Below are positions 7,260 to 53,459 of a stretch of 64,000 nt of DNA, in pieces. The stretch lies in sequence record MZ501103; one strand, 5' to 3'. Within the stretch, counting starts at the first letter, position 1; each line of letters opens with the position of its first letter. Made by a program: the position numbers and the translations under genes. The notes below the pieces were generated by a model. The model saw only the letters and a program-made list of their open reading frames with translations. It was not told the origin of the DNA and did no database searches. The DNA comes from Escherichia phage SelmaRatti.

Positions 7260-7290
7260 AGCCCCCTCCCCTTAGGTTTAATTTACCAGA

Positions 7291-8058
7291 TTATTCAGCA
7301 GCCGCAGCTTTTGCATCCAGTTTAGCACGCTTAGCGGCACCATCATAGTCCTTAGCAACCAGACCACGACGAGACAGCATAGATTTAACACCGCGCTCAG
7401 ACTTACCAGTTTTCTCAGCGATCTCAGCAACAGTCATGTTAACCAGATCCAGACCTTCTAACAGATCTTCACGAGTTTTAGCACTTGAAGTTTCCTGTAC
7501 CGGCATAGCAGCGATACGACCTTCACGAAGCAAGCTCAGAGCTTTACCACGGATCTGCTTGATATTACGACCGAAGTGAGCAGCGATAGCTTCAATAGTA
7601 GCACCAGCAACAACCTGATTAACAAAATCAGTTTCTTCATCCGGAGTGAAGGAACGAACTGCAGCAGCTTTTTCGGTTGGCTTAACAGAAGCGGTCATTT
7701 CCAGACTCAGGATCTTACCCTGTACCTGCTTAGCACCGAACTGACCACCAGCTACAGCAGCAGCGATTTCAGCATAGGTATACTGACCATCATGAGCGTT
7801 CAGGAAATCAACCAGTTCAGCTTCCTGCTCAGGAGTCCACGGGGATTTCTGTACTTCGTTAGCTTTCTGTACTTCGAAACCTTCTTTACGCAGCTTAGAG
7901 CCAACAGAGCGAGCGGTAACGTCTTTGCCAGTTTCAGTAGCCAGTTCAGCAGCGATAGCGGCTACTTGTTCTTGAGAGATTACAGAAACACCCAGAGCAG
8001 TGGCTTTTGCTTTCAGAGACTCGGTTACACCTTCTACGTTCCAGTTCAGTTTAGACAT
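7291..8058 (-). CDS. putative abundant DNA-binding protein (D5-like), internal repeats
   Basis: Ala/Lys-rich with repeated helix-like segments, GC-rich codon choice unlike neighbours; function inferred only. Confidence 0.4.
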   Translation of the reverse strand: MSKLNWNVEGVTESLKAKATALGVSVISQEQVAAIAAELATETGKDVTARSVGSKLRKEGFEVQKANEVQKSPWTPEQEAELVDFLNAHDGQYTYAEIAAAVAGGQFGAKQVQGKILSLEMTASVKPTEKAAAVRSFTPDEETDFVNQVVAGATIEAIAAHFGRNIKQIRGKALSLLREGRIAAMPVQETSSAKTREDLLEGLDLVNMTVAEIAEKTGKSERGVKSMLSRRGLVAKDYDGAAKRAKLDAKAAAAE

Positions 8059-37455: not shown

Positions 37456-37530
37456 CGGGGTGTAGTCTAAGGGAGAGGCAGGAGTCTTCTAAATTCCTTT
37501 ATGCAGGTTCGAATCCTGTCACCTCGGCCA
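37456..37530 (+). tRNA. tRNA-Arg (anticodon TCT)
   Basis: Hand-folded cloverleaf: acceptor cggggtg/cacctcg, anticodon loop cttctaa, T-arm gcagg-ttcgaat-cctgt, encoded CCA. Confidence 0.7.
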
Positions 37531-37564
37531 ATTTTATTAACTGTAACTAAAACAAAGGAAATAT

Positions 37565-38512
37565 ATGTTTAATACTAAAAATATGAAAGAACTAACTTCT
37601 GAGCAGAAAGTAATTCGTACTATTAAACGTTGGGGGATTGGTGCTGTAGTTGGTTTAGCAGGTTTAATCCTAGCTTTTAATTCATATACTATTGTTTCTG
37701 ATGGTACGGTTAAAACTCAAACATTCCTGGGTAAAGTAGACCCTAATCCAGTATTACCTGGTTTCCATATTGTAAACCCGTTTGCATCTTTCGATACTTT
37801 CAGTACAAAAGATATTGCTGTAAAATTAGATAAACTTCAGGTTCCTAGTCAGGATAAGTTTAAATCCACTGTTGACCTGACTGTTATGTTACAATTTGAT
37901 GGTTCTAAGGCACCGATCAACCGTATTAATGCAGGTACTCAGGATCAGGCTCTAGATAAGTACGTAACTGAAAAATTACTGTCCACTATTCGTGAGTTCG
38001 GTAAGTCTGTACCTAAAGCACAAGATTTATTTGATGCTAAAATTCAGGCTCAATTGCAAACTGCAATTCAACAGGAAGTTGAAGAGTATGCACGCCCATA
38101 TGGTTACACAGTTAAGCAGGTATTCCTTCAGGATATTACTTTGCCACCGGTAATCATGGAACAGGTACAGAATACCAAAGTTCGTGAAGAACAGGTTAAT
38201 GCTGCTAAAGCTGAATTAGCTCGTGTTGAACAGGAAGCACAGCAAAAAGTTAAACAAGCAGAAGCAGATCGTGAAGCTCGCAACAACCAAGCTATCGCTA
38301 ATGAACGTGACGCAGATGCTAAACTGTACGCAGCTAAGAAAGAAGCTGAAGCTAACGCCGCACTGCAACGTACCATTACTCCTGAGATGATTCGTTGGAA
38401 ACAACTGGAAGTTGAGATGATTCGTGCTCAGAAATATCAAGGTGGTGTGCCGCAGACTGTGGTTGGCACTGGTTACGATGGCCAGATGATTATGGATATG
38501 CGTAATAAGTAA
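37565..38512 (+). CDS. SPFH/band-7 membrane protein
   Basis: N-terminal TM helix, band-7-like core, C-terminal coiled coil. Confidence 0.55.
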   Translation: MFNTKNMKELTSEQKVIRTIKRWGIGAVVGLAGLILAFNSYTIVSDGTVKTQTFLGKVDPNPVLPGFHIVNPFASFDTFSTKDIAVKLDKLQVPSQDKFKSTVDLTVMLQFDGSKAPINRINAGTQDQALDKYVTEKLLSTIREFGKSVPKAQDLFDAKIQAQLQTAIQQEVEEYARPYGYTVKQVFLQDITLPPVIMEQVQNTKVREEQVNAAKAELARVEQEAQQKVKQAEADREARNNQAIANERDADAKLYAAKKEAEANAALQRTITPEMIRWKQLEVEMIRAQKYQGGVPQTVVGTGYDGQMIMDMRNK

Positions 38513-38588
38513 TATCCACGCGTAATATTCGAAGTAAGCCCTGTGTTTCCTGGAGAGCGCAGGCAATTAAATGAATTTATATAAAATT

Positions 38589-38621
38589 TTGCTTGTTTTT
38601 GCGCGTAAAATTTTATATAAT
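38589..38621 (+). promoter_or_regulatory. sigma70-type early promoter
   Basis: TTGCTT then TATATAAT; exact -10 register ambiguous. Confidence 0.45.
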
Positions 38622-38651
38622 ATTTACTCAAATTTGGAAGAATACGTTAAC

Positions 38652-39023
38652 ATGAATACTAATAAGAAAGGAAATATAGGGCTAGGAAGTGCGATTGCTC
38701 ACTTTACTAGTAAAGGTTTGATTGTTTCACTACCTTTAAATGACAGTCAAGATTACGATCTAATCGTAGATATGGGGGGTACTCTAAATAAAGTTCAGGT
38801 GAAATATACCTCCCAAAAGGCACCCTCTGGTAGTTATATTCTAGCTATGAGAAGTACAAGTGGCACTTCTAGAGTAGCGTATAAGACTCTTAATGAAACT
38901 AATATTGATTTAGTGTTTGTGTATACTGATCAGTATCAGTTGTTAATTCCAATTAAGAAATTAACTAATAAAAATCAAACTACCCTTACTAAAGAATTAG
39001 TACAAGAATTCCGAGTTATATAA
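38652..39023 (+). CDS. hypothetical protein, possible PD-(D/E)xK nuclease fold
   Basis: ATG 38652 chosen because the longer ORF starts inside the promoter; DYDLIVD...KVQVK motif. Confidence 0.4.
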   Translation: MNTNKKGNIGLGSAIAHFTSKGLIVSLPLNDSQDYDLIVDMGGTLNKVQVKYTSQKAPSGSYILAMRSTSGTSRVAYKTLNETNIDLVFVYTDQYQLLIPIKKLTNKNQTTLTKELVQEFRVI

Positions 39024-39025
39024 AA

Positions 39026-39115
39026 GGAAGAATACGTTAAAAGGTAAACGAGCTGATTGCTAATCAGTAGCTCTGAAATATAGCCTTGTGGGTTCGATTC
39101 CCACTTCTTCCGCCA
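39026..39115 (+). tRNA. tRNA-Ser (anticodon GCT), type II
   Basis: Acceptor ggaagaa/ttcttcc, anticodon loop ttgctaa, long variable arm, T-arm gtggg-ttcgatt-cccac, encoded CCA. Confidence 0.7.
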
Positions 39116-39121
39116 AACATA

Positions 39122-39196
39122 GGGTCGGTAGCTTAAAGTTAAAGCGGTGGCCTCATAAGCTAACGAGTAGGAGTTAGATTCTCCTCCGACCCACCA
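39122..39196 (+). tRNA. tRNA with anticodon CAT (Met or Ile2)
   Basis: Acceptor gggtcgg/ccgaccc perfect, anticodon loop ctcataa, T-arm aggag-ttagatt-ctcct, encoded CCA. Confidence 0.6.
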
Positions 39197-39211
39197 AATT
39201 AAGGAAATAAG

Positions 39212-39379
39212 ATGTATAGACATCCACCTCCGCCAACACGTCGTTCTAGAGAAGTTATCCTCATGGAATTGACTAAAAACTTCAAGGCAACTCTTGAAGA
39301 TAGAGATTTAGGCACAGATGAAGATGTTGATTTCATCTGTAAACTATTAAAAATGAAACTGGAGAAACAACATGGCTAA
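39212..39379 (+). CDS. small hypothetical protein (55 aa)
   Basis: RBS aagga; stop overlaps next ORF start. Confidence 0.3.
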   Translation: MYRHPPPPTRRSREVILMELTKNFKATLEDRDLGTDEDVDFICKLLKMKLEKQHG

Positions 39380-39578
39380 TCCTGAAATTACCGCACAACG
39401 TTTCATGCTTAAAGGCATGATTGCTGAGGCAGGTATGACTCAAGAAGTTGTAGATTTTCAAAAGCAATTCCTCAATATTCTCACTCAAGCCAAAGAGCTA
39501 GGAGAGAAAGAACATGGAGCAGCAATTATGGCTATATCTCTTATTAGTCTAGACTTGGCTGAAGAATCAGGAGTTTAA
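39372..39578 (+). CDS. hypothetical protein (68 aa)
   Basis: ORF. Confidence 0.4.
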   Translation: MANPEITAQRFMLKGMIAEAGMTQEVVDFQKQFLNILTQAKELGEKEHGAAIMAISLISLDLAEESGV

Positions 39579-39608
39579 CTCCTCCAAGCAGAAATTTTAA
39601 AAATGTAC

Positions 39609-39638
39609 TTGCCTTTTGCTTTAAATTTCTGATATAAT
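39609..39638 (+). promoter_or_regulatory. sigma70-type early promoter
   Basis: TTGCCT-18-TATAAT. Confidence 0.5.
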
Positions 39639-39649
39639 AGTTATATAAA

Positions 39650-39943
39650 TTGATGAGAGGAATCAGAATGTCAAAACGTGTTACAGCAACTGGTATTGAA
39701 AGTGTAATCTGCAAATCCTGGGAAGACAGGGAAGGTGAGATTGAATGGCTTTATTTCTATGATGTAGAACTTCTACCGGAAGTTAAAGCTAAATGTATTG
39801 AAGCTGGTATGGCTCCTGATGCTACTGCTGATGTTGAGATTATCATGAATAAGCTAGAGGGTCTGGTAATCACTGTTAGTGATGAGGGCGAAGAAGTCTT
39901 CGAACTTCCGTTCTCCTTAACTGTCACTCCTAAGTTCGACTAA
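39650..39943 (+). CDS. hypothetical protein (97 aa)
   Basis: Promoter 39609-39638, RBS gagagg. Confidence 0.45.
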   Translation: MMRGIRMSKRVTATGIESVICKSWEDREGEIEWLYFYDVELLPEVKAKCIEAGMAPDATADVEIIMNKLEGLVITVSDEGEEVFELPFSLTVTPKFD

Positions 39944-39979
39944 CTAATACAGCACTGAGCAAGTTCTTCAAAATTTTAC

Positions 39980-40008
39980 TTGCTCAGTGCCATAAAACTT
40001 GATATAAT
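39980..40008 (+). promoter_or_regulatory. sigma70-type early promoter upstream of tRNA-Tyr
   Basis: TTGCTC-17-TATAAT; -35 lies inside an 11-bp inverted repeat. Confidence 0.5.
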
Positions 40009-40071
40009 AGTTATCTAATTTGGAAACATATTTAAAAGTGTTTAAACTAGTATTTGAATACTTTTAAATGT

Positions 40072-40155
40072 GCATCGTTGGCAGAATGGCTATTGCAGCG
40101 GTCTGTAAATCCGTGCCCTTCGGGGTTGGTGGTTCAAATCCATCACGATGCACCA
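40072..40155 (+). tRNA. tRNA-Tyr (anticodon GTA), long variable arm
   Basis: Acceptor gcatcgt/acgatgc perfect, anticodon loop ctgtaaa, variable hairpin gccc-ttcg-gggt, encoded CCA. Confidence 0.7.
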
Positions 40156-40172
40156 AATTAAAGGAGCTGCTG

Positions 40173-40445
40173 ATGCATCCTGAAAACTTCTTTATTTACT
40201 GCGAGGATAAGTAGCTGAAACGTAGAATTAACAAAGTCTATCATTATCGTGCTAGTCAACAGCCTTATATATACGCTTTTGACGGTGATCACATTCCACT
40301 AGAACAATTATCCTGTGATTACATGATATTGAAGAACTTTGACGAGACAAAGATCTCAAGCGTTCATAATCGACAGAATCCATTAACGTGGAAATATAAG
40401 AAGAAAAAGAAAGGCATCAAATTCTTAAAAAATGTAGTTGCTTAG
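40173..40445 (+). pseudogene. ORF with strong RBS interrupted by in-frame TAG at codon 14 (40212-40214); pseudogene or amber read-through
   Basis: aaggag then ATG 40173; 13 codons, TAG, then 76 further sense codons in frame. Confidence 0.3.
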
Positions 40446-40466
40446 TTTCCAAAAGTTCTGTATAAT
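40438..40466 (+). promoter_or_regulatory. sigma70-type early promoter upstream of tRNA-Cys
   Basis: TTGCTT-17-TATAAT then cataaattgaa. Confidence 0.55.
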
Positions 40467-40514
40467 AATTACATAAATTGAACTGGAGAAGCAACATGAC
40501 AGAACAAGGTAAAT

Positions 40515-40587
40515 CGACCGTTGGCTGAATTGCTTAGGTGAAGGATTGCAAATCCTTTTTATGTGAGTTCAAATCTCATGCGGTCGT
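40515..40587 (+). tRNA. tRNA-Cys (anticodon GCA)
   Basis: Acceptor cgaccgt/gcggtcg (one G-U), anticodon arm aagga-ttgcaaa-tcctt perfect, T-arm gtgag-ttcaaat-ctcat. Confidence 0.65.
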
Positions 40588-40596
40588 CTAAATTTT

Positions 40597-40680
40597 AGGG
40601 TCGTTAGCCAAGTGGTTTGGCGGCGGATTGTTAATCCGTGTCGAAAGACAACGTAGGTTCGATTCCTGCACCCGCTGCCA
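40597..40680 (+). tRNA. tRNA-like gene, candidate Asn (GTT); acceptor stem imperfect
   Basis: D-arm, anticodon arm gcgga-ttgttaa-tccgt, T-arm and CCA fold well, but acceptor pairs only 4/7 and an extra gtc-gaaa-gac hairpin sits in the variable region. Confidence 0.35.
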
Positions 40681-40700
40681 TCTTAATAGAGGATTTCGAA

Positions 40701-40865
40701 ATGAAAGTATTTCGATTAGTAGTAAGTGATCGACGTTCTAGCAAAGATCGTTCGAAGTATACCTTAGCCCACTATGGTAAAGATGAAAAAGAAGTAATGG
40801 TGGAGTTTGGGATTAATCATCGCTACTTAGAAGTTTACTCTATTAAGGAAGTTTATCCGTATTAA
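40701..40865 (+). CDS. small hypothetical protein (54 aa)
   Basis: RBS agagga then ATG 40701; the longer ORF would start inside the preceding tRNA. Confidence 0.35.
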   Translation: MKVFRLVVSDRRSSKDRSKYTLAHYGKDEKEVMVEFGINHRYLEVYSIKEVYPY

Positions 40866-40943
40866 GGGTCGTTAGCTCAATTGGTTAGTAGCACTTGCCT
40901 TTTAAGCAATAGGTTGAAGGTTCGAGTCCTTCACTACCCACCA
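40866..40943 (+). tRNA. tRNA-Lys (anticodon TTT)
   Basis: Acceptor gggtcgt/actaccc (one mismatch), anticodon loop cttttaa, T-arm gaagg-ttcgagt-ccttc, encoded CCA. Confidence 0.6.
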
Positions 40944-40950
40944 AATTTTT

Positions 40951-41024
40951 GCTCGGTTAGTTTAATGGGAGAACCCCGTCTTTACACGGCGGTTGCGATA
41001 GTTCGATTCTATCACCGAGTACCA
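40951..41024 (+). tRNA. tRNA-Val (anticodon TAC)
   Basis: Acceptor gctcggt/accgagt, D-arm gttt/gaac, anticodon arm ccgtc-tttacac-ggcgg, T-arm gatag-ttcgatt-ctatc, encoded CCA. Confidence 0.75.
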
Positions 41025-41043
41025 ATTAACTCAAAATAAGGAA

Positions 41044-41409
41044 TTGCAAATGCAATTATCAAGCAAGATTCAAGGTTATTTCGGTCATGTGACAATGGAG
41101 TTCGCTATCTCTAAAGGTTGGGATTTCGAGCAAGATCTAGCTGAGTTCTACAAAGATATTGATCTGAACGTACCGTATATGGGACTTTCTACTGGTCAGG
41201 AGATCACAGAAGCCGATGTATTCAAGGCAAGTCAAGGTGAGATAACACCTAGTTTTGCCACTTTTTGGAGTGGCTTCACAATTAAAGAAGAAGCTCCAGA
41301 TGATGATGTATTTATGCAAAGCATGCACTCTGGGAGTTCTGATATGTTATTTGTTAAAGATGTACGACATATCCAAGAAGTGGTAAAAACGTATTTGCAA
41401 AATGCTTAA
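41044..41409 (+). CDS. hypothetical protein (121 aa)
   Basis: ORF with RBS aaggaa. Confidence 0.45.
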   Translation: MQMQLSSKIQGYFGHVTMEFAISKGWDFEQDLAEFYKDIDLNVPYMGLSTGQEITEADVFKASQGEITPSFATFWSGFTIKEEAPDDDVFMQSMHSGSSDMLFVKDVRHIQEVVKTYLQNA

Positions 41410-41423
41410 TTTCTTGTTATAAT
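41395..41423 (+). promoter_or_regulatory. sigma70-type early promoter driving unannotated RNA region
   Basis: TTGCAA-17-TATAAT then tataaattgatg. Confidence 0.5.
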
Positions 41424-41756
41424 ATTTATATAAATTGATGCGAAAATAGCTGCCTAGATACCAGGTGTATGACGTCTACACTAGCAGAGCTACCGAAAAA
41501 GAGATCCTCAGGATAAACGTCGTAGCAAAATTAGTCTGGTATCCATCAATTTAGTTCACTAAGGTATTAGCTCGACCTAGGACTGGCTGCCAAAAAGCAC
41601 GACCCCTACGACTCGGGAGAAGTTCTAGATTAGTCCACTAGATTCAGCGGCAACTGAATAGTGTATCGGGTTTGTGAAGAGCGGCTATCCTCTACTGGCT
41701 AATGTATGAGGTTAGTACGCACACCGAGCTAATAGCCTTAGTAAACTAAAGAATTT

Positions 41757-41831
41757 GGGCGAATAGTGTCAGCGGGAGCACACCAGACTTGCAATCTGGG
41801 AGGGAGGGTTCGAGCCACTCTTTGTCCACCA
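41757..41831 (+). tRNA. tRNA-Ala (anticodon TGC)
   Basis: Acceptor gggcgaa/tttgtcc (G-U pairs incl. G3-U70), anticodon arm ccaga-cttgcaa-tctgg perfect, T-loop ttcgagc, encoded CCA. Confidence 0.6.
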
Positions 41832-41955
41832 AATTAAAAAGAATGCGCGCGATTGACGGAATAGGTATACGTGTAAGCCTTAGAAGTTGAATTTTGAGGG
41901 TTCGAATCCCATCGAGGCGTAACTGCCTGGTGTGATAGAGGCATCATCTTATTAT

Positions 41956-42046
41956 TGGAAGAGCAAATCGAATTGGCGACGAAAACCGCTGGGAAAGTGG
42001 CTGACTGGTAAAACGGCTTGAGAGTTCAAATCTCTCCTCTTCCGCC
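41956..42046 (+). tRNA. type II tRNA-like gene (Leu/Ser class?), anticodon arm not resolved
   Basis: Perfect acceptor ggaagag/ctcttcc, T-arm gagag-ttcaaat-ctctc, CCA, D-loop gaattggcgac; no canonical anticodon stem found by hand. Confidence 0.35.
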
Positions 42047-42059
42047 AAACAATTTATAA

Positions 42060-42154
42060 GGTAGGTCAATCCAACGGCTGGCGATGGACTCCGACTTGAA
42101 ATCGGTTGATCGTAGTGATACGGTGTAAGGGTTCGATCCCCTTACCTACCTCCA
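42060..42154 (+). tRNA. tRNA-Ser (anticodon TGA), type II
   Basis: Acceptor ggtaggt/acctacc perfect, anticodon loop cttgaaa, variable hairpin cgta-gtga-tacg, T-arm aaggg-ttcgatc-ccctt, CCA. Confidence 0.65.
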
Positions 42155-42628
42155 AATCTTGAAGTATGCCGGAATCGGTAGACGGGGCTTCCTAAAGGGC
42201 GTAAGGGGAACATCCACTCCTCATAAGATACCCGAAAACGAGGCTGAGATAAATGGTCTATCTCGTGAAGGTTCAAGTCCTTCTGCTTCTTGATACCTCT
42301 ATGGCTCAAAGTGTAACGGTGCTATTTGATGCTCTTAGTAAGACTTTCCCGACATGCGTTCGGGGGTAAGCTGCTAAGACTAGAGTAGAAGAGTTTCGGA
42401 GAGCCGCCACAATTGAAAATTCGTACTCGTCTTGAGCTGCGTGCAATAGGAGATAACTTGATTAGTATTCTAGAACATGCTAATTGAGGAAGGTTTCTCT
42501 AACCCTGCGAGTTTTCAATTGTGGCTATATCATAATTGGTTAATGATCCTGATTGTGAATCAGGCCTTCCAAGCCTCGCTGAGTAGGGTTCGATTCCCTC
42601 TAGCAGCTCCAACTTTAAGGAAACATTT

Positions 42629-44320: not shown

Positions 44321-44668
44321 ATGAGCCGTACTTATCGTAGACAATCTGGTGATCAGTGGTGGAAGTCTAAAGCTAATTACACCCAGGGATATACTTTCCT
44401 CAAAGCAAGTGGCTACTACATTCGTGTTATTTATGCTAAATCCTGGGATGAGGTAGAACAGGAAATGGAAGAAGCAACCATTAGTAATGAGAAAAAGGAT
44501 GGTTATAACTGGAATTCTGTTAGTAAGAATGTTAAGTGGCATTCTAATAAAATGGTTCGTCAAGGAAATCGTCAAGAACTCCACCGCGTGATGAAAGATC
44601 CAGAAAATTATGACTATAATCGCGATCATGACATGCGTAAGCGTGGATTATGGTGGTGCTATGATTGA
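44321..44668 (+). CDS. hypothetical protein (115 aa)
   Basis: RBS ggaggtaat; follows terminator. Confidence 0.4.
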   Translation: MSRTYRRQSGDQWWKSKANYTQGYTFLKASGYYIRVIYAKSWDEVEQEMEEATISNEKKDGYNWNSVSKNVKWHSNKMVRQGNRQELHRVMKDPENYDYNRDHDMRKRGLWWCYD

Positions 44669-45182
44669 GAACAAAATGGAAGAATGGAAAATCATCGAGA
44701 ATTTTCCATCTTATGAGGTTTCTAGCTTAGGTAGGGTTAGAAACTTAAAAACAGGAAAAATCCGAAAACCCGTAGTACATCACAGTGGATACTTACAACT
44801 AAACCTAGTAAAGAAAGATGGGTCTAAAAAGACTGTGTATATCCATAGGGTAGTGGCCTTTGCTTTCTGCAATCCTCCTAAAAACTGGAAAGAATTAACT
44901 GTCAATCATAAAGATGGAAATAAGGAAAATGTAGAGGCTACTAACCTAGAGTGGATTAGTATGTCAGATAATTTAAAACACACAAGACTTACTGGTTTAA
45001 ATCATATAGATGGTGAAATGAACGGTAGGGCTTTATTAACAGCAGAACAGGTTCTTTGGATACGGAATGTTTATATACCCAGGGACAAGGAATTTGGGCA
45101 GAAAGCCCTTGCAGAAAAATTCAATGTTAGCAAAGCCACTATAAGCCATATAATAACACGTAGGACTTGGACAGAAATTTAA
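44661..45182 (+). CDS. HNH homing endonuclease with NUMOD4-like N-terminus
   Basis: WKIIENFPSYEVSSLGRVRN then HRVVAFAF...VNHKDGNKENV.NLEW; start placed at ATGA overlap. Confidence 0.65.
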   Translation: MIENKMEEWKIIENFPSYEVSSLGRVRNLKTGKIRKPVVHHSGYLQLNLVKKDGSKKTVYIHRVVAFAFCNPPKNWKELTVNHKDGNKENVEATNLEWISMSDNLKHTRLTGLNHIDGEMNGRALLTAEQVLWIRNVYIPRDKEFGQKALAEKFNVSKATISHIITRRTWTEI

Positions 45183-47222: not shown

Positions 47223-47316
47223 GATTGACACTAAGTCAACTTACTAGCAAAAGCAAATAATGACAAAGCCCAGCCTGCACTTTTGCGACTGGGCTATTTT
47301 TGTAATAAAATTTTAG

Positions 47317-47376: not shown

Positions 47377-48075
47377 ATGAGAATCATTTCTAAATTCGCA
47401 GATGTGTATGATTTGCAGAACAGTTTGTTTGATCCCGATCGTGTTTGGGAGCGTAAAACTGAAGAGTTACTAGTTAAGGTAACTGATGATGCAGAAAAGA
47501 ACATTGTGCATACTCGCCAAGTATTTCGTGAGGGTTCACTATCTTTCCGTGGTGACTTCGAATACTTCGTAAACCCACTGTTTATTGCAGGTGAAGTTTA
47601 CTGGCTACACGAGCTGTACTGCTGGCACCCAGCATTTAGTTTCAAAACGTTCAACCTCGACACTATGTTCGATAAAATGGAAGAGATGGGATTGCATGCT
47701 CGCTCCTACTTAATGGATAAGAGTCGTGGAGATGTTCGTGAAACAATGCGTGATTTGCTCGTTGAAGCAAAACCTAAAGCAGAACGTATCTTGTCCGAAC
47801 TGCGTGTACCGATTGCATATGTGAAAGGTATTAAGAAGAACGATAACGATGATGTTCGTAACTTCGTGATTCAGACTAACATTCGTTTCCATCAGTCAGG
47901 TATTCCGTGGCAGGAAATTGAAAGTAACTTATACCGTTTACACCAGATGATCGAGCAATATATCTGGGGCGTGTTAGGAACCGGTGAACCAAATACTATT
48001 ACGATTTCCGATAAGGATCGCTTAGCTGCACATGGATTTGATACGATTACATCATTCAGGAATATGAAAAGATGA
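47377..48075 (+). CDS. hypothetical protein (232 aa)
   Basis: Promoter 47317-47345; RBS. Confidence 0.5.
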   Translation: MRIISKFADVYDLQNSLFDPDRVWERKTEELLVKVTDDAEKNIVHTRQVFREGSLSFRGDFEYFVNPLFIAGEVYWLHELYCWHPAFSFKTFNLDTMFDKMEEMGLHARSYLMDKSRGDVRETMRDLLVEAKPKAERILSELRVPIAYVKGIKKNDNDDVRNFVIQTNIRFHQSGIPWQEIESNLYRLHQMIEQYIWGVLGTGEPNTITISDKDRLAAHGFDTITSFRNMKR

Positions 48076-48515
48076 TAAAAAACTTTATTAGTTCCCTATG
48101 GCAAGGTAAGTGGTATATCCTGGGAGCAGGTCTAGCGATAGGCATCGGGTTCGGTGCTTATCACTTAGTAGATAAAGTGGAGACTCTAGCAGGAGATCTT
48201 GCGGTAGCTACTAAAAAGATTACGTCCCTAGAGACTTCCCTTAATAATATGAAAGCTGAGAGTAAACTTCGTGAAACTCGTATGAATCAGTATTTCACAA
48301 TGAATAATGTTTCCCAAGCAGATCTAGACAAGAAGATTAATCAGCTTGATAAGGCACTTAGTCGTCAAGATATTATAGCTGCAAAGCCTGGATTGGTTAC
48401 ATTAATTGCTAAAAAGCAGAGTAAAGAATTTGAGGAGAGATTAGCATGTCTTTCTGGAAGTGTGGAATACTGCTCGCAGCCGCAATCACAATCACAGGCT
48501 GTGCACAAGAAATAA
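48072..48515 (+). CDS. possible i-spanin-like protein (N-terminal TM + coiled coil)
   Basis: N-terminal TM helix then helical region; 3' end overlaps the lipoprotein ORF out of frame. Confidence 0.35.
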   Translation: MIKNFISSLWQGKWYILGAGLAIGIGFGAYHLVDKVETLAGDLAVATKKITSLETSLNNMKAESKLRETRMNQYFTMNNVSQADLDKKINQLDKALSRQDIIAAKPGLVTLIAKKQSKEFEERLACLSGSVEYCSQPQSQSQAVHKK

Positions 48516-48799
48516 AGCCAGAACCTACACATGAGCTACCAACAGCTCACGTAGATTGGCCTAAAGGACTTCAACCTTGTAGCTTTGACTTTAAGTTTGA
48601 AAAGAAATTAGCTACAAATGGGGAAGATGGCGTAGTAGTAGTCGTACCATATAAAGATTGGAATATGTTGGCAAAATGCCGTGAGGCAGAATATTCATAT
48701 ATTTCACGGCTGACAAGTATGGTTTGCTTCTATCGCCAAGATTTACAAGAAAAACGTTGCTTAGTTTACTATCCACCAATTAACAATAGGAAAGATTAA
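48446..48799 (+). CDS. possible o-spanin-like lipoprotein
   Basis: Lipobox LAAAITITG|C after signal peptide; overlaps upstream gene by 70 nt in another frame. Confidence 0.35.
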   Translation: MSFWKCGILLAAAITITGCAQEIKPEPTHELPTAHVDWPKGLQPCSFDFKFEKKLATNGEDGVVVVVPYKDWNMLAKCREAEYSYISRLTSMVCFYRQDLQEKRCLVYYPPINNRKD

Positions 48800-49551
48800 T
48801 GTCAGTATTAGTCGGTTTACATGGCGAGGCAGGTGCGGGAAAAGATACCGTTGCAAAATTAATTATCGATTGGTGTAATAACACGTATCCAACGTGTTTA
48901 TCCAGTCGTTACAGTTTTGCTAAGCCCGTTTATGAACTTGCATCCGTAATTCTCGGTGTAACTCCAGAGTTTCTAGGAGAGCGCAGGGGAAAAGAGGTTG
49001 ACCAATGGTTTACGGTCACACAATCTCAATTGGAGCGAGCCAGAGATGTGTGGTTTAAGTACGGTATCGATAAGTTTGAAGACTTCTCGTACGTTTGGCC
49101 TATTTTTGAGGAAAAATATCTTAATCCTCAACAACTTATCTCAGAGAATAAAGAAGACGGACTTTATAGTTTATTTATTTCTCCGAGAAAAATGTTACAG
49201 CTCGTAGGAACAGAGCTAGGAAGGCAGCTGGTGCATGAACGCATTTGGCTCATAATTCTGGAGCAATCCATCGCTAAAGACGACCCAGATGTCGCCGTAA
49301 TAACAGATGTGAGATTCCCCAATGAAGGAGAGTTACTAAGAGAAACAAACCATTTAGATATGGATTCTTTGATATTAAATGTAGTACCCGCTGAGCAGAA
49401 GTTCACTATTAAATCAGATCATCCATCTGAAAGTGGTATTCCTGCAAAATATATTACTCACGAATTAGTTAATAAATTCGATGGTATCAATAACCTTAAA
49501 CTAGAAGTTTATAACTTCTGTGACTTAGAGCTAAAACCACTAGTTGGATAA
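48799..49551 (+). CDS. deoxynucleoside monophosphate kinase
   Basis: P-loop GLHGEAGAGKDT at N-terminus; 250 aa. Confidence 0.65.
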   Translation: MSVLVGLHGEAGAGKDTVAKLIIDWCNNTYPTCLSSRYSFAKPVYELASVILGVTPEFLGERRGKEVDQWFTVTQSQLERARDVWFKYGIDKFEDFSYVWPIFEEKYLNPQQLISENKEDGLYSLFISPRKMLQLVGTELGRQLVHERIWLIILEQSIAKDDPDVAVITDVRFPNEGELLRETNHLDMDSLILNVVPAEQKFTIKSDHPSESGIPAKYITHELVNKFDGINNLKLEVYNFCDLELKPLVG

Positions 49552-49563
49552 TCAAGGATCGCT

Positions 49564-50160
49564 ATGACTAATAAAAAAGAAGAAAAGACTAACCTGTTTC
49601 ACTCCATTCGCCAATCTAATGAGTATACCTTTTTCTTTGATGAAGAATTAGGTCCGCCGGATGAATACCGTGATTTATCAATGGTACTTATGCAAGCAAA
49701 TGAGAACGACGAAATTAATCTGATGATTAATGGTCCAGGTGGTTATGTTGATACTGCTGCACAGTTATCTAACTTAATTGCTAATTGCCGTGGAACAGTT
49801 ATAGGGCATCTGGTTGGTCCTAGTGCTTCTGCTTACTGCACAATCTTCCTATCTTGCCACGGTTGGGTAGTACATCCGCATGCTACGCTAATGGGACACA
49901 CGTTCTCTGGGGGGTTCTGCGAGAAAGGTCAAGAAATCAAGAAAGCCTATGAATCTTACAACAAGTTCGTAGAAGATATGATGCTAGATGTCTACTATCC
50001 ATTCTTCTCAATAGATGAAATCGACGAGATGGTAAAAGACAACAAAAATATCTATCTAGATAGCAAGGAAATCCATAAGCGTATTGAAATCTTGGCAAAA
50101 TATCGATCTGAGCAATATAATAAAGCCCAGTTACCTCAATTCGAGGAGCATAAAGAATAG
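49564..50160 (+). CDS. ClpP-like serine protease family protein
   Basis: INGPGGYVDTAAQ...GHLVGPSASAYCTIF resembles the ClpP core. Confidence 0.45.
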   Translation: MTNKKEEKTNLFHSIRQSNEYTFFFDEELGPPDEYRDLSMVLMQANENDEINLMINGPGGYVDTAAQLSNLIANCRGTVIGHLVGPSASAYCTIFLSCHGWVVHPHATLMGHTFSGGFCEKGQEIKKAYESYNKFVEDMMLDVYYPFFSIDEIDEMVKDNKNIYLDSKEIHKRIEILAKYRSEQYNKAQLPQFEEHKE

Positions 50161-50225
50161 TAAGTAGTTTTAAGCCAGGGTTTAACGACCCTGGCTTTTC
50201 TTTTAAGAAAAATAAGGAAAAATAA

Positions 50226-50762
50226 ATGTTAACACAGAAGGAATTAAAAAGAAAGATAGAGTACAACCCAGAAACAGGAGAGTTCTTTAGGAAGCTGAAA
50301 AGTGGTAAAAAGTTAATAAATAATAGACCTAACAAAGATGGGTATATTTTAATAGGAGTTGCAGGGGGTGGAGTGCCACAACAACTAGCCCATCGATTAG
50401 CTTTCCTTTACATGACTGGAAAAATACCAAAAATCGTTGACCATATTAATAGAAATACAGGAGATAATCGTTGGTGTAATCTTAGAGACGCTACTCCACA
50501 ACAAAACAGCAGAAATAGAAAGTCTAATAATAAGTCAGGATACTTAGGTGTATTTTGGAGTAAGGTTGCACAAAAATGGCAAGTACAAGTAACTGGATCA
50601 AACGAAGAGCTAGTATACGGAGGGTTATTCGAATACTTGGAACTGGATAAAGCAGTCGAAAAAGCAAATGAGCTAAGATTACAGTACCATGGTTCTAGGG
50701 CAATGGTAGAGGTTTTCGATAATACACGACCGTTACCGCCTATTAAGGGATTAAATATGTGA
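50226..50762 (+). CDS. HNH homing endonuclease (AP2/HNH_3-like)
   Basis: GYILIGV...HRLAFLYMTGKIPKIVDHINRNTGDNRWCNLRDATPQQN. Confidence 0.7.
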   Translation: MLTQKELKRKIEYNPETGEFFRKLKSGKKLINNRPNKDGYILIGVAGGGVPQQLAHRLAFLYMTGKIPKIVDHINRNTGDNRWCNLRDATPQQNSRNRKSNNKSGYLGVFWSKVAQKWQVQVTGSNEELVYGGLFEYLELDKAVEKANELRLQYHGSRAMVEVFDNTRPLPPIKGLNM

Positions 50763-50838: not shown

Positions 50839-50867
50839 TTGTAATTTTCCTCCAAAATTAGTATAAT
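50839..50867 (+). promoter_or_regulatory. sigma70-type promoter of holin/endolysin operon
   Basis: TTGTAA-17-TATAAT. Confidence 0.5.
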
Positions 50868-50891: not shown

Positions 50892-51548
50892 TTGGAAAAG
50901 TTCTTACAATTATTAACGGTACTGCTCCAAGAAGCGAAAGATCCAGCATCGCTTCTTAAACGTCTGCTAACTATCTTAGTTGCTGTCATTATTTTCTTGT
51001 TTGTAAGTAACACTAGCGAGGTGATGTCATTTTTAAAGACTTTCTCCACGTCTTCGGTTTTACAGGATGTTCAAACCCAAAGGATAGATAACTTTCCTAA
51101 TGTAGCACGAGAAAAGAGCATGGTACTCTTTTCTCAAACGGGTGCGGATGCTGTTTTTGTCGTCAAGTATAAACCCGATGCCATTAATGATTATTCTAAC
51201 ATTATTGCATGGGAAAGCAATGCGCAATTAGATAGGGCTGACTTGGCCGATAAAGCGGTAAATAAAACGTCTGAGCTATATAGACGTCACTTGGAAGGCT
51301 TTAACTACGCATCGGATTTAAGTGTAAAAGTAAATAAATACATGGGGTTAAATATACCTGCGTTTAAGAACGTTACTTTTAATTACATATACACTTGTCC
51401 GTATTTCAATCTAAACAATATCTATGCTGGATATATTGGTATTGCTTGGAAAGATAATCCTGTAGATGCAGCCGATTCTGAACAGTTCAAGGAATATTTA
51501 GCAAAGCTCTGTTCCCCACAACAGAGATCTTTAGGTAGGTCAATATGA
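50892..51548 (+). CDS. putative holin (TTG start)
   Basis: N-terminal TM helix; stop overlaps endolysin start; RBS ggagg 6 nt before TTG. Confidence 0.45.
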   Translation: MEKFLQLLTVLLQEAKDPASLLKRLLTILVAVIIFLFVSNTSEVMSFLKTFSTSSVLQDVQTQRIDNFPNVAREKSMVLFSQTGADAVFVVKYKPDAINDYSNIIAWESNAQLDRADLADKAVNKTSELYRRHLEGFNYASDLSVKVNKYMGLNIPAFKNVTFNYIYTCPYFNLNNIYAGYIGIAWKDNPVDAADSEQFKEYLAKLCSPQQRSLGRSI

Positions 51549-51958
51549 GTTTTAAATTTGGTAAAAATAGCGAAAAACAATTAGCTACTGTTAAGCCAGA
51601 GCTACAAAAAGTAGCTCGTAGGGCTTTAGAATTATCTCCATATGATTTCACGATCGTACAGGGTATTCGTACAGTAGCACAAAGTGCCCAGAATATTGCT
51701 AATGGTACTTCATTTTTAAAAGATCCTAGTAAAAGCAAGCATATTACTGGGGATGCTCTTGATTTTGCTCCATATATTAATGGCAAAATTGATTGGAATG
51801 ACTTAGAAGCATTTTGGGCAGTTAAAAAGGCTTTTGAACAAGCTGGTAAAGAGCTAGGCATTAAACTTCGTTTTGGTGCTGATTGGAATGCTTCGGGAGA
51901 CTATCACGATGAAATAAAACGTGGTACCTATGATGGCGGTCATGTAGAACTAGTTTAA
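51545..51958 (+). CDS. endolysin, L-alanyl-D-glutamate peptidase (M15/VanY-like)
   Basis: SKHITGDALD...DGGHVEL zinc-peptidase pattern; 137 aa. Confidence 0.7.
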   Translation: MSFKFGKNSEKQLATVKPELQKVARRALELSPYDFTIVQGIRTVAQSAQNIANGTSFLKDPSKSKHITGDALDFAPYINGKIDWNDLEAFWAVKKAFEQAGKELGIKLRFGADWNASGDYHDEIKRGTYDGGHVELV

Positions 51959-52527: not shown

Positions 52528-52956
52528 ATGTCTGATCGTTTCTACACTCAAATGGCTGAACATTTTCGTATACCACATTACGAGCTAAACATTGCACTCC
52601 GTGATCATGACTCTCCTGAGTACAAAAAGCTCGAAAAGAAAGCGGAAAAATCTATTGATACAAAGGTAGGTGCATCTATGTCTAAGGGCAAAAAGTTAAC
52701 TCGTCTTGATCTTAATAAAATTTTAACTGAACTTTTGGGTACTGATATTGAAGGTGCTAAATTACCGCTTCTTGTACTAGAGACTATGATTAAAAAGGTC
52801 AAAAATAAAGAGTATAAAAAGGTAGAAGTCCCAGAAGGAAGATTGAAGGCTCCTTATCAGGAAGCATTAACCGAGTGTTTGGGTGTAAATCTTGATCTGA
52901 GCACCGCAACCGTAAAAACTATGAAAAACTTCTTAGAGGCCATTAATAAATTGTGA
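52528..52956 (+). CDS. hypothetical protein (142 aa)
   Basis: Promoter 52466-52494, RBS agagagg. Confidence 0.45.
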   Translation: MSDRFYTQMAEHFRIPHYELNIALRDHDSPEYKKLEKKAEKSIDTKVGASMSKGKKLTRLDLNKILTELLGTDIEGAKLPLLVLETMIKKVKNKEYKKVEVPEGRLKAPYQEALTECLGVNLDLSTATVKTMKNFLEAINKL

Positions 52957-53459
52957 TTACTATGGAAAGATTATTAGAGGTACTAGAATATCATGAAGAT
53001 GGTACTCTAACCTGGAAACCTAGACCGGAAGGTACAAGAGGTTGGAATACTAGCCTTAACAATATGCCTGCTGGGTCTATTAATGCTGATGGCTATCTAA
53101 TGCTCTCTATTGATGGAGAACGAATACTTGCGCATAGAGCAATCTTCTTTATGCACAAAGGCTATTTACCTGATATAGTAGATCATGATGATACCAATAC
53201 GCTAAACAATCGTATTGGTAACTTAATAGAAGCTACAAAAGCTCAAAATGCTTTTAATAGGAAATCGGCTAATAAAAATAACCTATTGGGATTAAAAAAC
53301 ATATCTCAAAGAGGGAAGTCTTTTAGAGTAAAAATCTCTAGGGCAGGAATCAATTATATGAAAACGTGCAGTTCTTTGGAAGAAGCAATTGCATGGAGAG
53401 ATAAAAAACTAGAAGAACTCCACGGTGAGTTTGCCAGCAAAGGAAATAAAAATGTCTAA
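52953..53459 (+). CDS. HNH homing endonuclease (AP2/HNH_3-like)
   Basis: GYLMLSI...HRAIFFMHKGYLPDIVDHDDTNTLNNRIGNL. Confidence 0.7.
   Translation: MITMERLLEVLEYHEDGTLTWKPRPEGTRGWNTSLNNMPAGSINADGYLMLSIDGERILAHRAIFFMHKGYLPDIVDHDDTNTLNNRIGNLIEATKAQNAFNRKSANKNNLLGLKNISQRGKSFRVKISRAGINYMKTCSSLEEAIAWRDKKLEELHGEFASKGNKNV

What the first reader, a model, noticed from the sequence alone, without database searches (positions are those of the whole stretch)
48072..48799. Overlapping TM-protein and lipoprotein pair resembling a spanin, apart from holin/endolysin
A type-II membrane protein with a helical periplasmic domain overlaps out of frame with a lipoprotein carrying a lipobox (ITG|C). This is the architecture of i-spanin/o-spanin pairs, yet it sits about 2 kb upstream of the holin-endolysin pair at 50892-51958. 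It could alternatively be a superinfection-exclusion lipoprotein module.
Basis: inference. Interest (0 to 1): 0.45.

Follow-up and report, generated by a model that had tools for sequence, protein, structure and literature searches.

The report
Known T5-type phage spanin gene pair
These two overlapping genes are the standard inner- and outer-membrane "spanin" pair of a T5-like phage, which breaks the host's outer membrane at the end of lysis; both the pair and its position away from the holin and endolysin genes are already described, so the finding is correct but ordinary.

Summary
ORF 48072-48515 encodes a 147-aa protein with one N-terminal transmembrane segment. ORF 48446-48799 encodes a 117-aa lipoprotein precursor with lipobox ITG|C. 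The two overlap by 70 nt in different frames, and the T-type holin and endolysin start 2.09 kb downstream.

The spanin reading is supported. The proteins are 88% and 97% identical to T5.045 and T5.044, which RefSeq annotates as "Rz-like spanin". They match the PHROG spanin families at 6e-38 and 3e-29. They are distant homologues of T4 PseT.3/PseT.2, whose spanin function was shown by complementing a lambda Rz/Rz1 defect (PMC6139136).

That paper already describes the T5 spanin family, its 70-bp overlap and the relatives in which a homing endonuclease splits the pair.

The gene order orf232, i-spanin, o-spanin, dNMP kinase, Clp-like protease, terminator, promoter, holin, endolysin is conserved across Demerecviridae. 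The separation from the holin is therefore the family norm. It is about 0.57 kb larger here only because an HNH homing endonuclease gene is inserted.

The superinfection-exclusion alternative has no support.

Verdict: already known, low interest.

The parts
48072..48515 (+). i-spanin gene (147 aa), the orthologue of T5.045 and a distant homologue of T4 PseT.3
   Evidence: ORF. 88% identity to T5.045. phrog_739 'Rz-like spanin', E 6.3e-38. BLASTP against T4 PseT.3 gives E 5e-7.
48114..48170 (+). Codons for the single N-terminal transmembrane segment of the i-spanin (residues 15-33, YILGAGLAIGIGFGAYHLV)
   Evidence: Best Kyte-Doolittle 19-residue window, mean 1.55, with Lys3 and Lys13 upstream of it. 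It aligns with the hydrophobic N-terminus of T5, Klebsiella-phage, My1 and T4 i-spanins.
48446..48799 (+). o-spanin gene (117-aa precursor, 99-aa mature lipoprotein), the orthologue of T5.044 and a distant homologue of T4 PseT.2
   Evidence: ORF. 97% identity to T5.044. phrog_812 'Rz-like spanin', E 3.4e-29. BLASTP against T4 PseT.2 gives E 2e-7, and against PEi20 PseT.2 gives E 3e-11.
48446..48502 (+). Signal peptidase II signal sequence with lipobox ITG|C (residues 1-19). Cys19 is the predicted lipidated residue and +2 is Ala.
   Evidence: Pattern match. Gly18-Cys19 is invariant in the alignment of T5-like and T4-like o-spanins. A lipobox is present in all 69 related loci.
48446..48515 (+). 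70-nt doubly coded overlap. It encodes the i-spanin C-terminal tail (residues 125-147, with Cys126 and Cys134) and the o-spanin signal peptide.
   Evidence: The same 70-nt overlap occurs in T5, in 25 of 28 close IMG/VR loci, and is published for T5 (PMC6139136). Nucleotide diversity is lowest here (0.053, against 0.080-0.096 in the flanking singly coded parts).
48432..48437 (+). GAGGAG Shine-Dalgarno sequence, 8 nt upstream of the o-spanin ATG and inside the i-spanin reading frame
   Evidence: Read directly from the sequence.
47377..48075 (+). orf232, the T5.047 homologue of unknown function. It is the first gene of the operon, and its TGA stop overlaps the i-spanin ATG (ATGA).
   Evidence: phrog_4243, E 4.8e-114, function unknown. 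It lies upstream of the i-spanin in T5, IrisVonRoten, My1 and VAC51.
47283..47311 (+). Promoter-like site (TTGCGA-17-TAAAAT) upstream of orf232. Its position corresponds to the promoter annotated upstream of T5.047 in T5.
   Evidence: Consensus scan, which is weak on its own because the number of sites equals the shuffle expectation. T5 annotation.
48799..50160 (+). dNMP kinase (48799-49551) and Clp-like protease (49564-50160) genes, apparently co-transcribed downstream of the spanins. They separate the spanins from the holin.
   Evidence: phrog_139 and PF21448; phrog_1827 and PF00574. The same order is seen in all Demerecviridae loci examined.
50172..50197 (+). Intrinsic-terminator-like hairpin (11-bp stem followed by a T-run) that ends the spanin-containing transcription unit
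   Evidence: It corresponds to the rho-independent terminator annotated after T5.042 in T5.
50892..51548 (+). T-type (class III) holin, a functional partner encoded in a separate operon
   Evidence: PF11031 Phage_holin_T, E 1.4e-113; phrog_860. A promoter-like site TTGTAA-17-TATAAT lies at 50839-50867.
51545..51958 (+). Endolysin of the T5 Lys type (L-alanyl-D-glutamate peptidase), a functional partner
   Evidence: phrog_465, E 2.2e-54; weak Peptidase_M15_4 match. Annotated 'endolysin' or 'L-alanyl-D-glutamate peptidase' in relatives.

Best explanation
The locus is the two-component spanin of a T5-like (Demerecviridae, Tequintavirus-type) phage.

Shown here:
- Gene 48072-48515 encodes a protein with one N-terminal transmembrane segment and a mostly helical remainder (the i-spanin).
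- Gene 48446-48799 encodes a lipoprotein precursor with a lipobox and a non-Asp residue at +2 (the o-spanin).
- The genes overlap by 70 nt.
- They are orthologous to T5.045/T5.044 and distantly homologous to T4 PseT.3/PseT.2.

Inferred from established spanin biology (lambda Rz/Rz1 and T4 PseT.3/PseT.2):
- The i-spanin is anchored N-in/C-out in the inner membrane.
- The o-spanin is lipidated at Cys19, cleaved by signal peptidase II and sorted by Lol to the inner leaflet of the outer membrane.
- Their periplasmic C-terminal regions bind each other, forming complexes that span the periplasm through the peptidoglycan mesh. Disulfide bonds stabilise these complexes. Cys94 and Cys105 align with the two cysteines essential in T4 PseT.2.
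- After the T-type holin (50892-51548) permeabilises the inner membrane and the endolysin (51545-51958) degrades the murein, the freed complexes disrupt the outer membrane, probably by fusing it with the inner membrane. This completes lysis.

The spanin genes appear to be transcribed with orf232, the dNMP kinase and the Clp-like protease from an upstream promoter. That unit ends at the hairpin at 50172-50197, and the holin-endolysin pair forms a separate unit.
For: Anatomy: (ORFs, 70-nt out-of-frame overlap, transmembrane segment at residues 15-33, lipobox ITG|C, +2 Ala, Shine-Dalgarno sequence).

Orthology: 88% and 97% identity to T5.045/T5.044, annotated 'Rz-like spanin'. phrog_739 at 6.3e-38 and phrog_812 at 3.4e-29, both 'Rz-like spanin'. 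Many relatives are annotated i-spanin/o-spanin.

Deep homology to validated spanins: BLASTP against T4 PseT.2 gives 2e-7 and against PseT.3 gives 5e-7. Against PEi20 the values are 3e-11 and 7e-7. Invariant o-spanin columns are G18, C19, H35, W38, P39, C94, Y96, R97 and C105. The i-spanin shares a KPxL core within a conserved AxKPGLV-like motif.

Literature: T4 pseT.3/pseT.2 complement lambda RzamRz1am, and both PseT.2 cysteines are essential. The T5 spanin family, with its 70-bp overlap, is listed there (PMC6139136).

Selection: both ORFs are intact in 26 of 26 distinct sequences. Diversity by codon position is 0.047/0.016/0.177 in the i-only periplasmic part and 0.055/0.041/0.192 in the o-only part. 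The overlap is the least diverse zone.

Synteny: all 32 T5-like IMG/VR loci have i-spanin, o-spanin, dnk, holin and lys in the same order. My1 and the Klebsiella phage VAC51 do too.

Operon signals.
Against: I found no experimental test of the T5-family proteins themselves. Function rests on homology of about 27-30% identity to T4 PseT.3/PseT.2, plus topology.

My Pfam-A copy and NCBIfam have no model that matches either protein. The PDB has no relative.

The single-sequence AlphaFold models are low confidence (pLDDT 48.5 and 65.2). The helical and beta-alpha-beta descriptions are therefore only indicative.

The promoter assignment is weak: consensus hits in the region are no more frequent than in shuffled sequence.

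Lipidation, outer-membrane sorting, i-o binding and the disulfide pattern are inferred, not shown.
Confidence: 0.95

Rival explanations
1. A superinfection-exclusion or lytic-conversion module. In this reading the lipoprotein, with or without its membrane partner, blocks a receptor or DNA entry, as T5 Llp blocks FhuA, rather than acting in lysis.
For: The only support is the generic presence of a lipoprotein signal and the location in an early-type operon away from the holin.
Against: - There is no similarity to any exclusion or defence family. PHROGs returns only spanin families. PADLOC, Pfam and NCBIfam return nothing relevant.
- The lipoprotein is homologous to T4 PseT.2, a spanin validated by complementation (PMC6139136).
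- It is always paired with, and usually overlaps, a type II membrane protein homologous to PseT.3.
- T5's Llp is treated in the literature as a gene distinct from the T5 lysis cassette with its spanins: phage Shivani keeps the spanins while lacking llp (PMC4342426).
- The o-spanin is 84-98% conserved across Tequintavirus-like phages. From my own knowledge, these phages use different receptors, which would be unexpected for a receptor-specific blocker.
Confidence: 0.02
2. A spanin pair by descent that is no longer needed or functional in this phage, for example because outer-membrane disruption is carried out by another factor.
For: No direct functional data for the T5 family were found. Some phages are known to lack spanins (PMC6139136, section on spanin-less phages).
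Against: Both ORFs are intact in 26 of 26 distinct relatives, with a clear purifying-selection signature. The lipobox, the transmembrane segment and the cysteines aligned with the essential T4 pair are all conserved. Even when a homing endonuclease splits the pair, a new o-spanin start with a lipobox and an i-spanin stop are retained.
Confidence: 0.03

Closest known systems
Phage T5 spanins T5.045 (i-spanin) and T5.044 (o-spanin): the 'T5' two-component spanin family of Kongari et al. 2018 (PMC6139136), PHROGs 739 and 812
   Same: Identical lengths (147 and 117 aa) at 88% and 97% identity. The 70-nt overlap, the lipobox ITG|C and the cysteine positions are the same. The flanking genes are also the same: the T5.047 homologue upstream, then dnk, the Clp-like protease, holin and lys downstream.
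   Different: Minor points only. The first ~14 residues of the i-spanin and the first 6 of the o-spanin belong to a different haplotype (MIKNFISS... and MSFWKC...). T5's hegF, which lies between T5.047 and the i-spanin, is absent here. An HNH endonuclease gene is present between the Clp-like protease and the holin.
Phage T4 PseT.3 / PseT.2 two-component spanin (validated by complementation of lambda RzamRz1am, PMC6139136)
   Same: Homologous proteins at about 27-30% identity, with pairwise E values from 2e-7 to 3e-11. They share the type II i-spanin and lipoprotein o-spanin design, the HxxWP and C-x-YR-x-x-L-x-E-x-x-C motifs, and the spacing of the two essential C-terminal cysteines. In both phages the spanin genes lie away from the holin and endolysin genes.
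   Different: - In T4-like phages the two genes merely abut: the gap from the i-spanin stop to the o-spanin start ranges from a 4-nt overlap to 8 nt of spacer, and the arrangement is classed as 'separated' in the literature. Here the overlap is 70 nt.
- The T4 i-spanin has no periplasmic cysteine and its o-spanin has two. Here the i-spanin has two (C126, C134) and the mature o-spanin has four besides the lipidated Cys19.
- The proteins here are longer (147 and 117 aa, against 117 and 99 aa).
- T4-like loci have no holin within 5 kb either side. Here the holin is 2.1 kb away.
Phage lambda Rz / Rz1 (the prototype two-component spanin)
   Same: Same functional class and topology: a type II inner-membrane protein with a helical periplasmic domain, plus an outer-membrane lipoprotein encoded in a different frame of overlapping DNA, with periplasmic cysteines.
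   Different: No detectable sequence similarity: no Pfam Rz or Rz1 family matched. Rz1 is wholly embedded in Rz, and the pair lies in the S-R-Rz/Rz1 cassette. Rz1 is short, proline-rich and unstructured, whereas the T4/T5-type o-spanin is larger with predicted beta-alpha-beta elements (PMC6139136; low-confidence model).
Shivani / phiR201 / IrisVonRoten-type 'separated' T5-family spanins
   Same: The same two proteins in the same operon position.
   Different: In those phages a homing-endonuclease gene of about 700 bp (T5orf172/MUG113 domains) sits inside the overlap. It replaces the i-spanin tail after Cys134 and the first residues of the o-spanin signal peptide. The window has the uninterrupted, overlapped form.

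Membership tests
Two-component spanin (functional class; criteria of Summer 2007 and Kongari 2018) | i-spanin: a single N-terminal transmembrane domain with N-in/C-out topology and a periplasmic domain rich in alpha-helix or coiled coil | tested here: met
   Hydrophobic segment at residues 15-33 with Lys residues on its N-terminal side. Helices 3-77, 82-97, 107-114 and 118-127 in a low-confidence AF2 model.
Two-component spanin (functional class; criteria of Summer 2007 and Kongari 2018) | o-spanin: an outer-membrane lipoprotein signal (signal peptidase II signal peptide, lipobox, no Asp at +2) | tested here: met
   MSFWKCGILLAAAITITG|CA. Matches the lipobox patterns, and +2 is Ala. Gly-Cys is invariant across homologues.
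Two-component spanin (functional class; criteria of Summer 2007 and Kongari 2018) | The o-spanin gene is embedded in, overlaps or immediately follows the i-spanin gene | tested here: met
   70-nt overlap in a different frame.
Two-component spanin (functional class; criteria of Summer 2007 and Kongari 2018) | At least one periplasmic cysteine available for intermolecular disulfide bonds | tested here: met
   i-spanin C126 and C134. Mature o-spanin C45, C78, C94 and C105.
Two-component spanin (functional class; criteria of Summer 2007 and Kongari 2018) | Encoded by a phage of a Gram-negative host that also carries a holin and an endolysin | tested here: met
   T-holin and endolysin lie at 50892-51958. 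The closest relatives infect Escherichia and Salmonella.
Two-component spanin (functional class; criteria of Summer 2007 and Kongari 2018) | Physical i-spanin/o-spanin complex spanning the periplasm, and a requirement for outer-membrane disruption (spherical-cell arrest in mutants; complementation of lambda RzamRz1am) | not testable with these tools
   Requires genetics and biochemistry. Shown only for the distant homologues T4 PseT.3/PseT.2 (PMC6139136).
T5 spanin family (T5.045/T5.044; PHROG 739/812) | Full-length sequence similarity of both proteins to the T5 pair | tested here: met
   88% over 147 aa and 97% over 117 aa. PHROG E values 6.3e-38 and 3.4e-29.
T5 spanin family (T5.045/T5.044; PHROG 739/812) | Conserved genomic position: downstream of the T5.047 homologue, upstream of dnk, the Clp-like protease, holin and lys | tested here: met
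T4 PseT.3/PseT.2 spanin superfamily | Detectable homology of both subunits, including the two C-terminal o-spanin cysteines essential in T4 | tested here: met
   Pairwise E values 2e-7 and 5e-7 against T4, and 3e-11 and 7e-7 against PEi20. C94 and C105 are invariant in alignment A1.
T4 PseT.3/PseT.2 spanin superfamily | 'Separated' gene architecture, a cysteine-free i-spanin, and two periplasmic cysteines in the o-spanin | tested here: not met
   Here the overlap is 70 nt, the i-spanin has 2 cysteines and the mature o-spanin has 4. The pair is therefore a relative of the narrow T4 family, not a member of it.
Lambda Rz/Rz1 sequence families | Sequence match to the Rz and Rz1 families, with Rz1 fully embedded in Rz | tested here: not met
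   No Pfam hit above noise. The o-spanin extends 284 nt beyond the i-spanin stop.
Superinfection-exclusion / lytic-conversion lipoproteins (e.g. T5 Llp, Cor) | Homology to a known exclusion lipoprotein or defence family | tested here: not met
   PHROGs returns only spanin families. PADLOC, Pfam and NCBIfam return nothing relevant.
Superinfection-exclusion / lytic-conversion lipoproteins (e.g. T5 Llp, Cor) | Blocks the receptor or DNA entry when expressed | not testable with these tools
   Requires adsorption and efficiency-of-plating assays.

The most novel reading that the evidence does not exclude
The T5-type spanin may use a disulfide scheme different from both characterised systems. Compared with T4 PseT.3/PseT.2, Demerecviridae spanins have an extra conserved cysteine pair in the o-spanin (C45, C78) and a C-x7-C motif in the i-spanin tail (C126, C134). 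The C-x7-C motif is encoded at the start of the overlap. These cysteines could form a covalent i-spanin/o-spanin link or a redox-gated step. That would differ from the homotypic linkages of lambda and the o-spanin-only linkages of T4. It would be a variation within known spanin biology, not a new system.
Probability: 0.15. Interest if true: 0.3.

Novelty: already known. Interest (0 to 1): 0.07.

Why it matters
It matters little beyond correct annotation. The pair completes the lysis gene set of this T5-like phage: holin, endolysin, i-spanin and o-spanin.

The practical value is as a reference point for annotation. Public records of close relatives often label these two ORFs wrongly or leave them as 'hypothetical'. 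The exact start of the o-spanin, which determines whether the lipoprotein signal is seen, is sometimes miscalled.

The T5 family still lacks direct experimental study, so its extra cysteines and its tolerance of homing-endonuclease insertion in the overlap are modest open questions.

Tried and rejected
- Pfam-A and NCBIfam scans of both proteins gave only sub-threshold noise: the coiled-coil-like hits CNOT1, Tnp_22_trimer and MctB, and an FtsL domain at 22 bits against a cutoff of 50. I rejected these as compositional matches to a transmembrane segment plus helix.
- PDB sequence searches found no relative of either spanin or of orf232.
- The PADLOC scan, run to test the exclusion/defence idea, found nothing relevant.
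- The word-indexed protein search returned only four close homologues, carrying a precomputed Pfam accession PF26831.1. That accession is absent from my Pfam copy and I could not name it.
- Single-sequence AlphaFold2 models were too low in confidence (pLDDT 48.5 and 65.2) to justify fold searches. I used them only as a rough secondary-structure indication.
- Summer et al. 2007 (PubMed 17900620), the original Rz/Rz1-equivalents survey, is not in the held library. Claims about it rest on its citation in PMC6139136 and PMC12894885.
- The promoter scan is not informative by itself: 15 sites were found against 15.9 expected. I cite only the sites that coincide with annotated T5 promoters.
- The chance-ORF explanation was rejected on the conservation data.
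Full report
**1. What is in the sequence**

The window holds two ORFs on the + strand at exactly the reported coordinates: 48072-48515 (ATG, 147 aa) and 48446-48799 (ATG, 117 aa). They share 70 nt (48446-48515) in different reading frames.

The upstream protein has one strongly hydrophobic stretch, YILGAGLAIGIGFGAYHLV, at residues 15-33. Lys3 and Lys13 precede it, which is the signature of an N-in/C-out type II membrane protein. The remaining ~115 residues are polar. A single-sequence AlphaFold2 model folds them as helices, but its confidence is low (pLDDT 65).

The downstream protein starts MSFWKCGILLAAAITITG|CAQEIK. This is a short positively charged n-region, a hydrophobic core, the lipobox I-T-G-C, and Ala at +2, so there is no inner-membrane retention signal. 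A GAGGAG ribosome-binding site lies 8 nt before its ATG, inside the upstream gene. The upstream gene's own ATG overlaps the TGA stop of the preceding ORF (ATGA at 48072-48075).

ORF 50892-51548 matches Pfam Phage_holin_T at E 1.4e-113. ORF 51545-51958 matches the endolysin family phrog_465 at E 2.2e-54. The holin starts 2,092 nt after the lipoprotein stop codon.

**2. What it is**

The window comes from a T5-like phage. A 4.8-kb query around the locus matches 454 phage records, almost all Salmonella or Escherichia Tequintavirus-type genomes, at 80-96% identity.

In the RefSeq T5 genome the corresponding genes are T5.045 and T5.044, both annotated 'Rz-like spanin'. They have the same lengths and the same 70-nt overlap. 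The window's proteins are 88% and 97% identical to them.

Both proteins match PHROG families described as 'Rz-like spanin': phrog_739 at E 6.3e-38 and phrog_812 at E 3.4e-29. Curated relatives such as the BASEL phages IrisVonRoten, HildyBeyeler and DaisyDussoix annotate them as i-spanin and o-spanin.

**3. Link to experimentally characterised spanins**

A tblastn search with the lipoprotein reaches pseT.2 of a T4-like phage.

Direct comparisons give:
- o-spanin against PEi20 PseT.2, E 3e-11; against T4 PseT.2, E 2e-7.
- i-spanin against PEi20 PseT.3, E 7e-7; against T4 PseT.3, E 5e-7.

In a seven-sequence alignment the o-spanins share invariant G18-C19 (the lipobox), H35, W38, P39, C94, Y96, R97, L100, E102 and C105. 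The i-spanins share a KPxL core within an AxKPGLV-like motif.

Kongari et al. 2018 (PMC6139136) showed that T4 pseT.3/pseT.2 complement the lambda RzamRz1am lysis defect. They also showed that both C-terminal cysteines of PseT.2 are essential. Those cysteines align with C94 and C105 here.

The same paper lists a 'T5' family among both i-spanin and o-spanin families, with members T5, EPS7, Stitch, SPC35, AKFV33, FFH1, DT57C, My1, phiR201 and Shivani. It states that the T5 spanins overlap by 70 bp. It also describes relatives in which a homing-endonuclease gene of about 700 bp separates the pair. The feature is therefore already published, in essentially this form.

**4. Is the distance from the holin unusual?**

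No. T5, IrisVonRoten, LmqsSP1, Stokescottia, Pectobacterium phage My1 (Mccorquodalevirinae) and Klebsiella phage VAC51 (Sugarlandvirus) all have the same order. That order is T5.047 homologue, i-spanin, o-spanin, dNMP kinase, Clp-like protease, holin, endolysin.

I retrieved 69 related loci from IMG/VR and analysed them by script.
- All 32 T5-like loci have the i-spanin immediately upstream of the o-spanin.
- Of the 28 close relatives, 25 have the 70-nt overlap and 3 have a 666-nt gap containing the endonuclease.
- The two Sugarlandvirus-like loci overlap by 88 nt, and the two My1-like loci by 34 nt.
- In nearly all the close relatives the holin starts about 1.52 kb after the o-spanin stop.
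- The 37 T4-like loci have PseT.3 and PseT.2 abutting, with no holin within 5 kb.

Kongari et al. also note that the T4 spanin genes are not near t and e.

The larger distance in this window, 2.09 kb, is explained by an extra 537-nt ORF at 50226-50762. It carries an HNH_3 domain (E 3.5e-14). It lies between a strong terminator-like hairpin at 50172-50197 and a promoter-like site at 50839-50867 just upstream of the holin.

These two signals correspond to the terminator after T5.042 and the promoter before the holin annotated in T5. A promoter-like site at 47283-47311 matches the position of the annotated promoter upstream of T5.047. The spanins therefore appear to be co-transcribed with orf232, dnk and the Clp-like protease, separately from the holin-endolysin operon. 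This is inferred from consensus signals and the T5 annotation, not measured.

**5. Are both frames really coding?**

In 26 distinct Tequintavirus-like sequences with the overlapped architecture, both ORFs are intact in all 26.

| Zone | Mean diversity | Diversity by codon position 1 / 2 / 3 |
|---|---|---|
| i-only periplasmic part | 0.080 | 0.047 / 0.016 / 0.177 |
| Overlap | 0.053 | 0.031 / 0.025 / 0.100 (i-spanin frame) |
| o-only part | 0.096 | 0.055 / 0.041 / 0.192 |

The third-position excess in the singly coded parts is the pattern of purifying selection on each protein. The doubly coded overlap is the least diverse zone. All 69 related loci keep a lipobox.

**6. Mechanism**

Shown here: topology signals, lipoprotein signal, overlap, orthology and conservation.

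Inferred from the lambda and T4 systems:
- The i-spanin sits in the inner membrane.
- The o-spanin is lipidated at Cys19 and sorted to the outer membrane.
- Their C-terminal periplasmic parts bind, giving complexes threaded through the murein and stabilised by disulfides.
- Once the T-holin and the endolysin have removed the murein constraint, the complexes disrupt the outer membrane, probably by fusing the inner and outer membranes.

Differences from T4 are minor but real. The Demerecviridae o-spanins carry an additional conserved cysteine pair (C45, C78). The i-spanins carry a C-x7-C motif (C126, C134) in a C-terminal extension that T4 lacks. Whether this changes the disulfide scheme is unknown. 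That is the only mildly novel reading left open.

**7. Rival explanations**

The superinfection-exclusion lipoprotein idea has no positive evidence. No exclusion or defence family matches. The lipoprotein is homologous to a validated spanin and is always paired with a PseT.3-like membrane protein. T5's lytic-conversion lipoprotein Llp is treated in the literature as a separate gene: phage Shivani keeps the T5-like spanins while lacking llp (PMC4342426).

A decayed, non-functional remnant is contradicted by the selection signature. It is also contradicted by what happens when an endonuclease is inserted in the overlap. In IrisVonRoten the i-spanin keeps its reading frame up to just after Cys134, and the insert supplies a new start for the o-spanin (MRKIKL...) while the lipobox is kept.

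**8. Verdict**

The alleged oddity is the family norm. The feature is already known, as T5.045/T5.044 and in Kongari et al. 2018. Interest is low.

The remaining uncertainty is that the function of the T5-family proteins themselves has, as far as I could find, not been tested directly. Complementation of lambda RzamRz1am and a knockout phenotype would settle it.

Noticed in passing
window 50226-50762 (+): A 178-aa HNH_3 homing-endonuclease ORF lies between the terminator-like hairpin after the Clp-like protease gene (50172-50197) and the holin promoter-like site (50839-50867). T5 and nearly all the close IMG/VR relatives lack it. The only other top hit covering this part of the query (96% coverage) is Salmonella phage Kenya-K18. 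The insertion accounts for the larger spanin-to-holin distance.
   Followed up: partly
window 48072-48075, compared with L004 (T5) 7246-7743: T5 has the HNH endonuclease gene hegF (T5.046) between T5.047 and the i-spanin. Here the two genes abut, with an ATGA stop/start overlap. Across relatives, the first ~14 residues of the i-spanin fall into three distinct haplotypes (MIKNFISS..., MRKWFVDL..., LIQKLLSG...). This may reflect co-conversion around that endonuclease site.
   Followed up: partly
L001 (IrisVonRoten) 2673-3377; also L002, L017, L018, L024: In some relatives a 234-aa endonuclease gene (CapR, DUF4379, MUG113 and T5orf172 domains) sits inside the spanin overlap. A motif of about 10 nt, TGGAATACTG, is found at both junctions. 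The insert's 3' end provides a new o-spanin start codon and n-region (MRKIKL), and the i-spanin tail after Cys134 is replaced. Kongari et al. 2018 reported the same arrangement for Shivani and phiR201.
   Followed up: yes
L002 (LmqsSP1) 578-1276 and 1770-2195; L007 (VAC51) 4175-4330; many records: Several public annotations of this locus look wrong. LmqsSP1 labels the T5.047 homologue 'i-spanin' and the real i-spanin 'hypothetical protein'. In many records the feature listed under the o-spanin match is named 'i-spanin'. The VAC51 'O-spanin' CDS is truncated and lacks its signal peptide; the full ORF is 4001-4330.
   Followed up: partly
window 47377-48075 (+): orf232 (the T5.047 homologue, phrog_4243, unknown function) has no Pfam, NCBIfam or PDB match. 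It is conserved just upstream of the i-spanin in T5, IrisVonRoten, My1 and VAC51, and its stop overlaps the i-spanin start here. One record names it 'DNA polymerase III subunit epsilon', which I could not confirm.
   Followed up: partly
window 44610-45182 and 52953-53459 (+): Two more HNH_3 homing-endonuclease ORFs, one with a NUMOD4 motif, lie in the same early region. The region is densely populated with mobile endonuclease genes.
   Followed up: no
window 37456-42611 (+): A cluster of 10 tRNA genes (Arg, Ser x2, Met, Tyr, Cys, Lys, Val, Ala, His), as is typical of T5-like genomes.
   Followed up: no
L018 5354-5889: One IMG/VR relative has about 535 nt of extra sequence between the o-spanin stop and the dNMP kinase gene, in addition to the endonuclease inside the spanin overlap. 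It may be yet another inserted gene.
   Followed up: no
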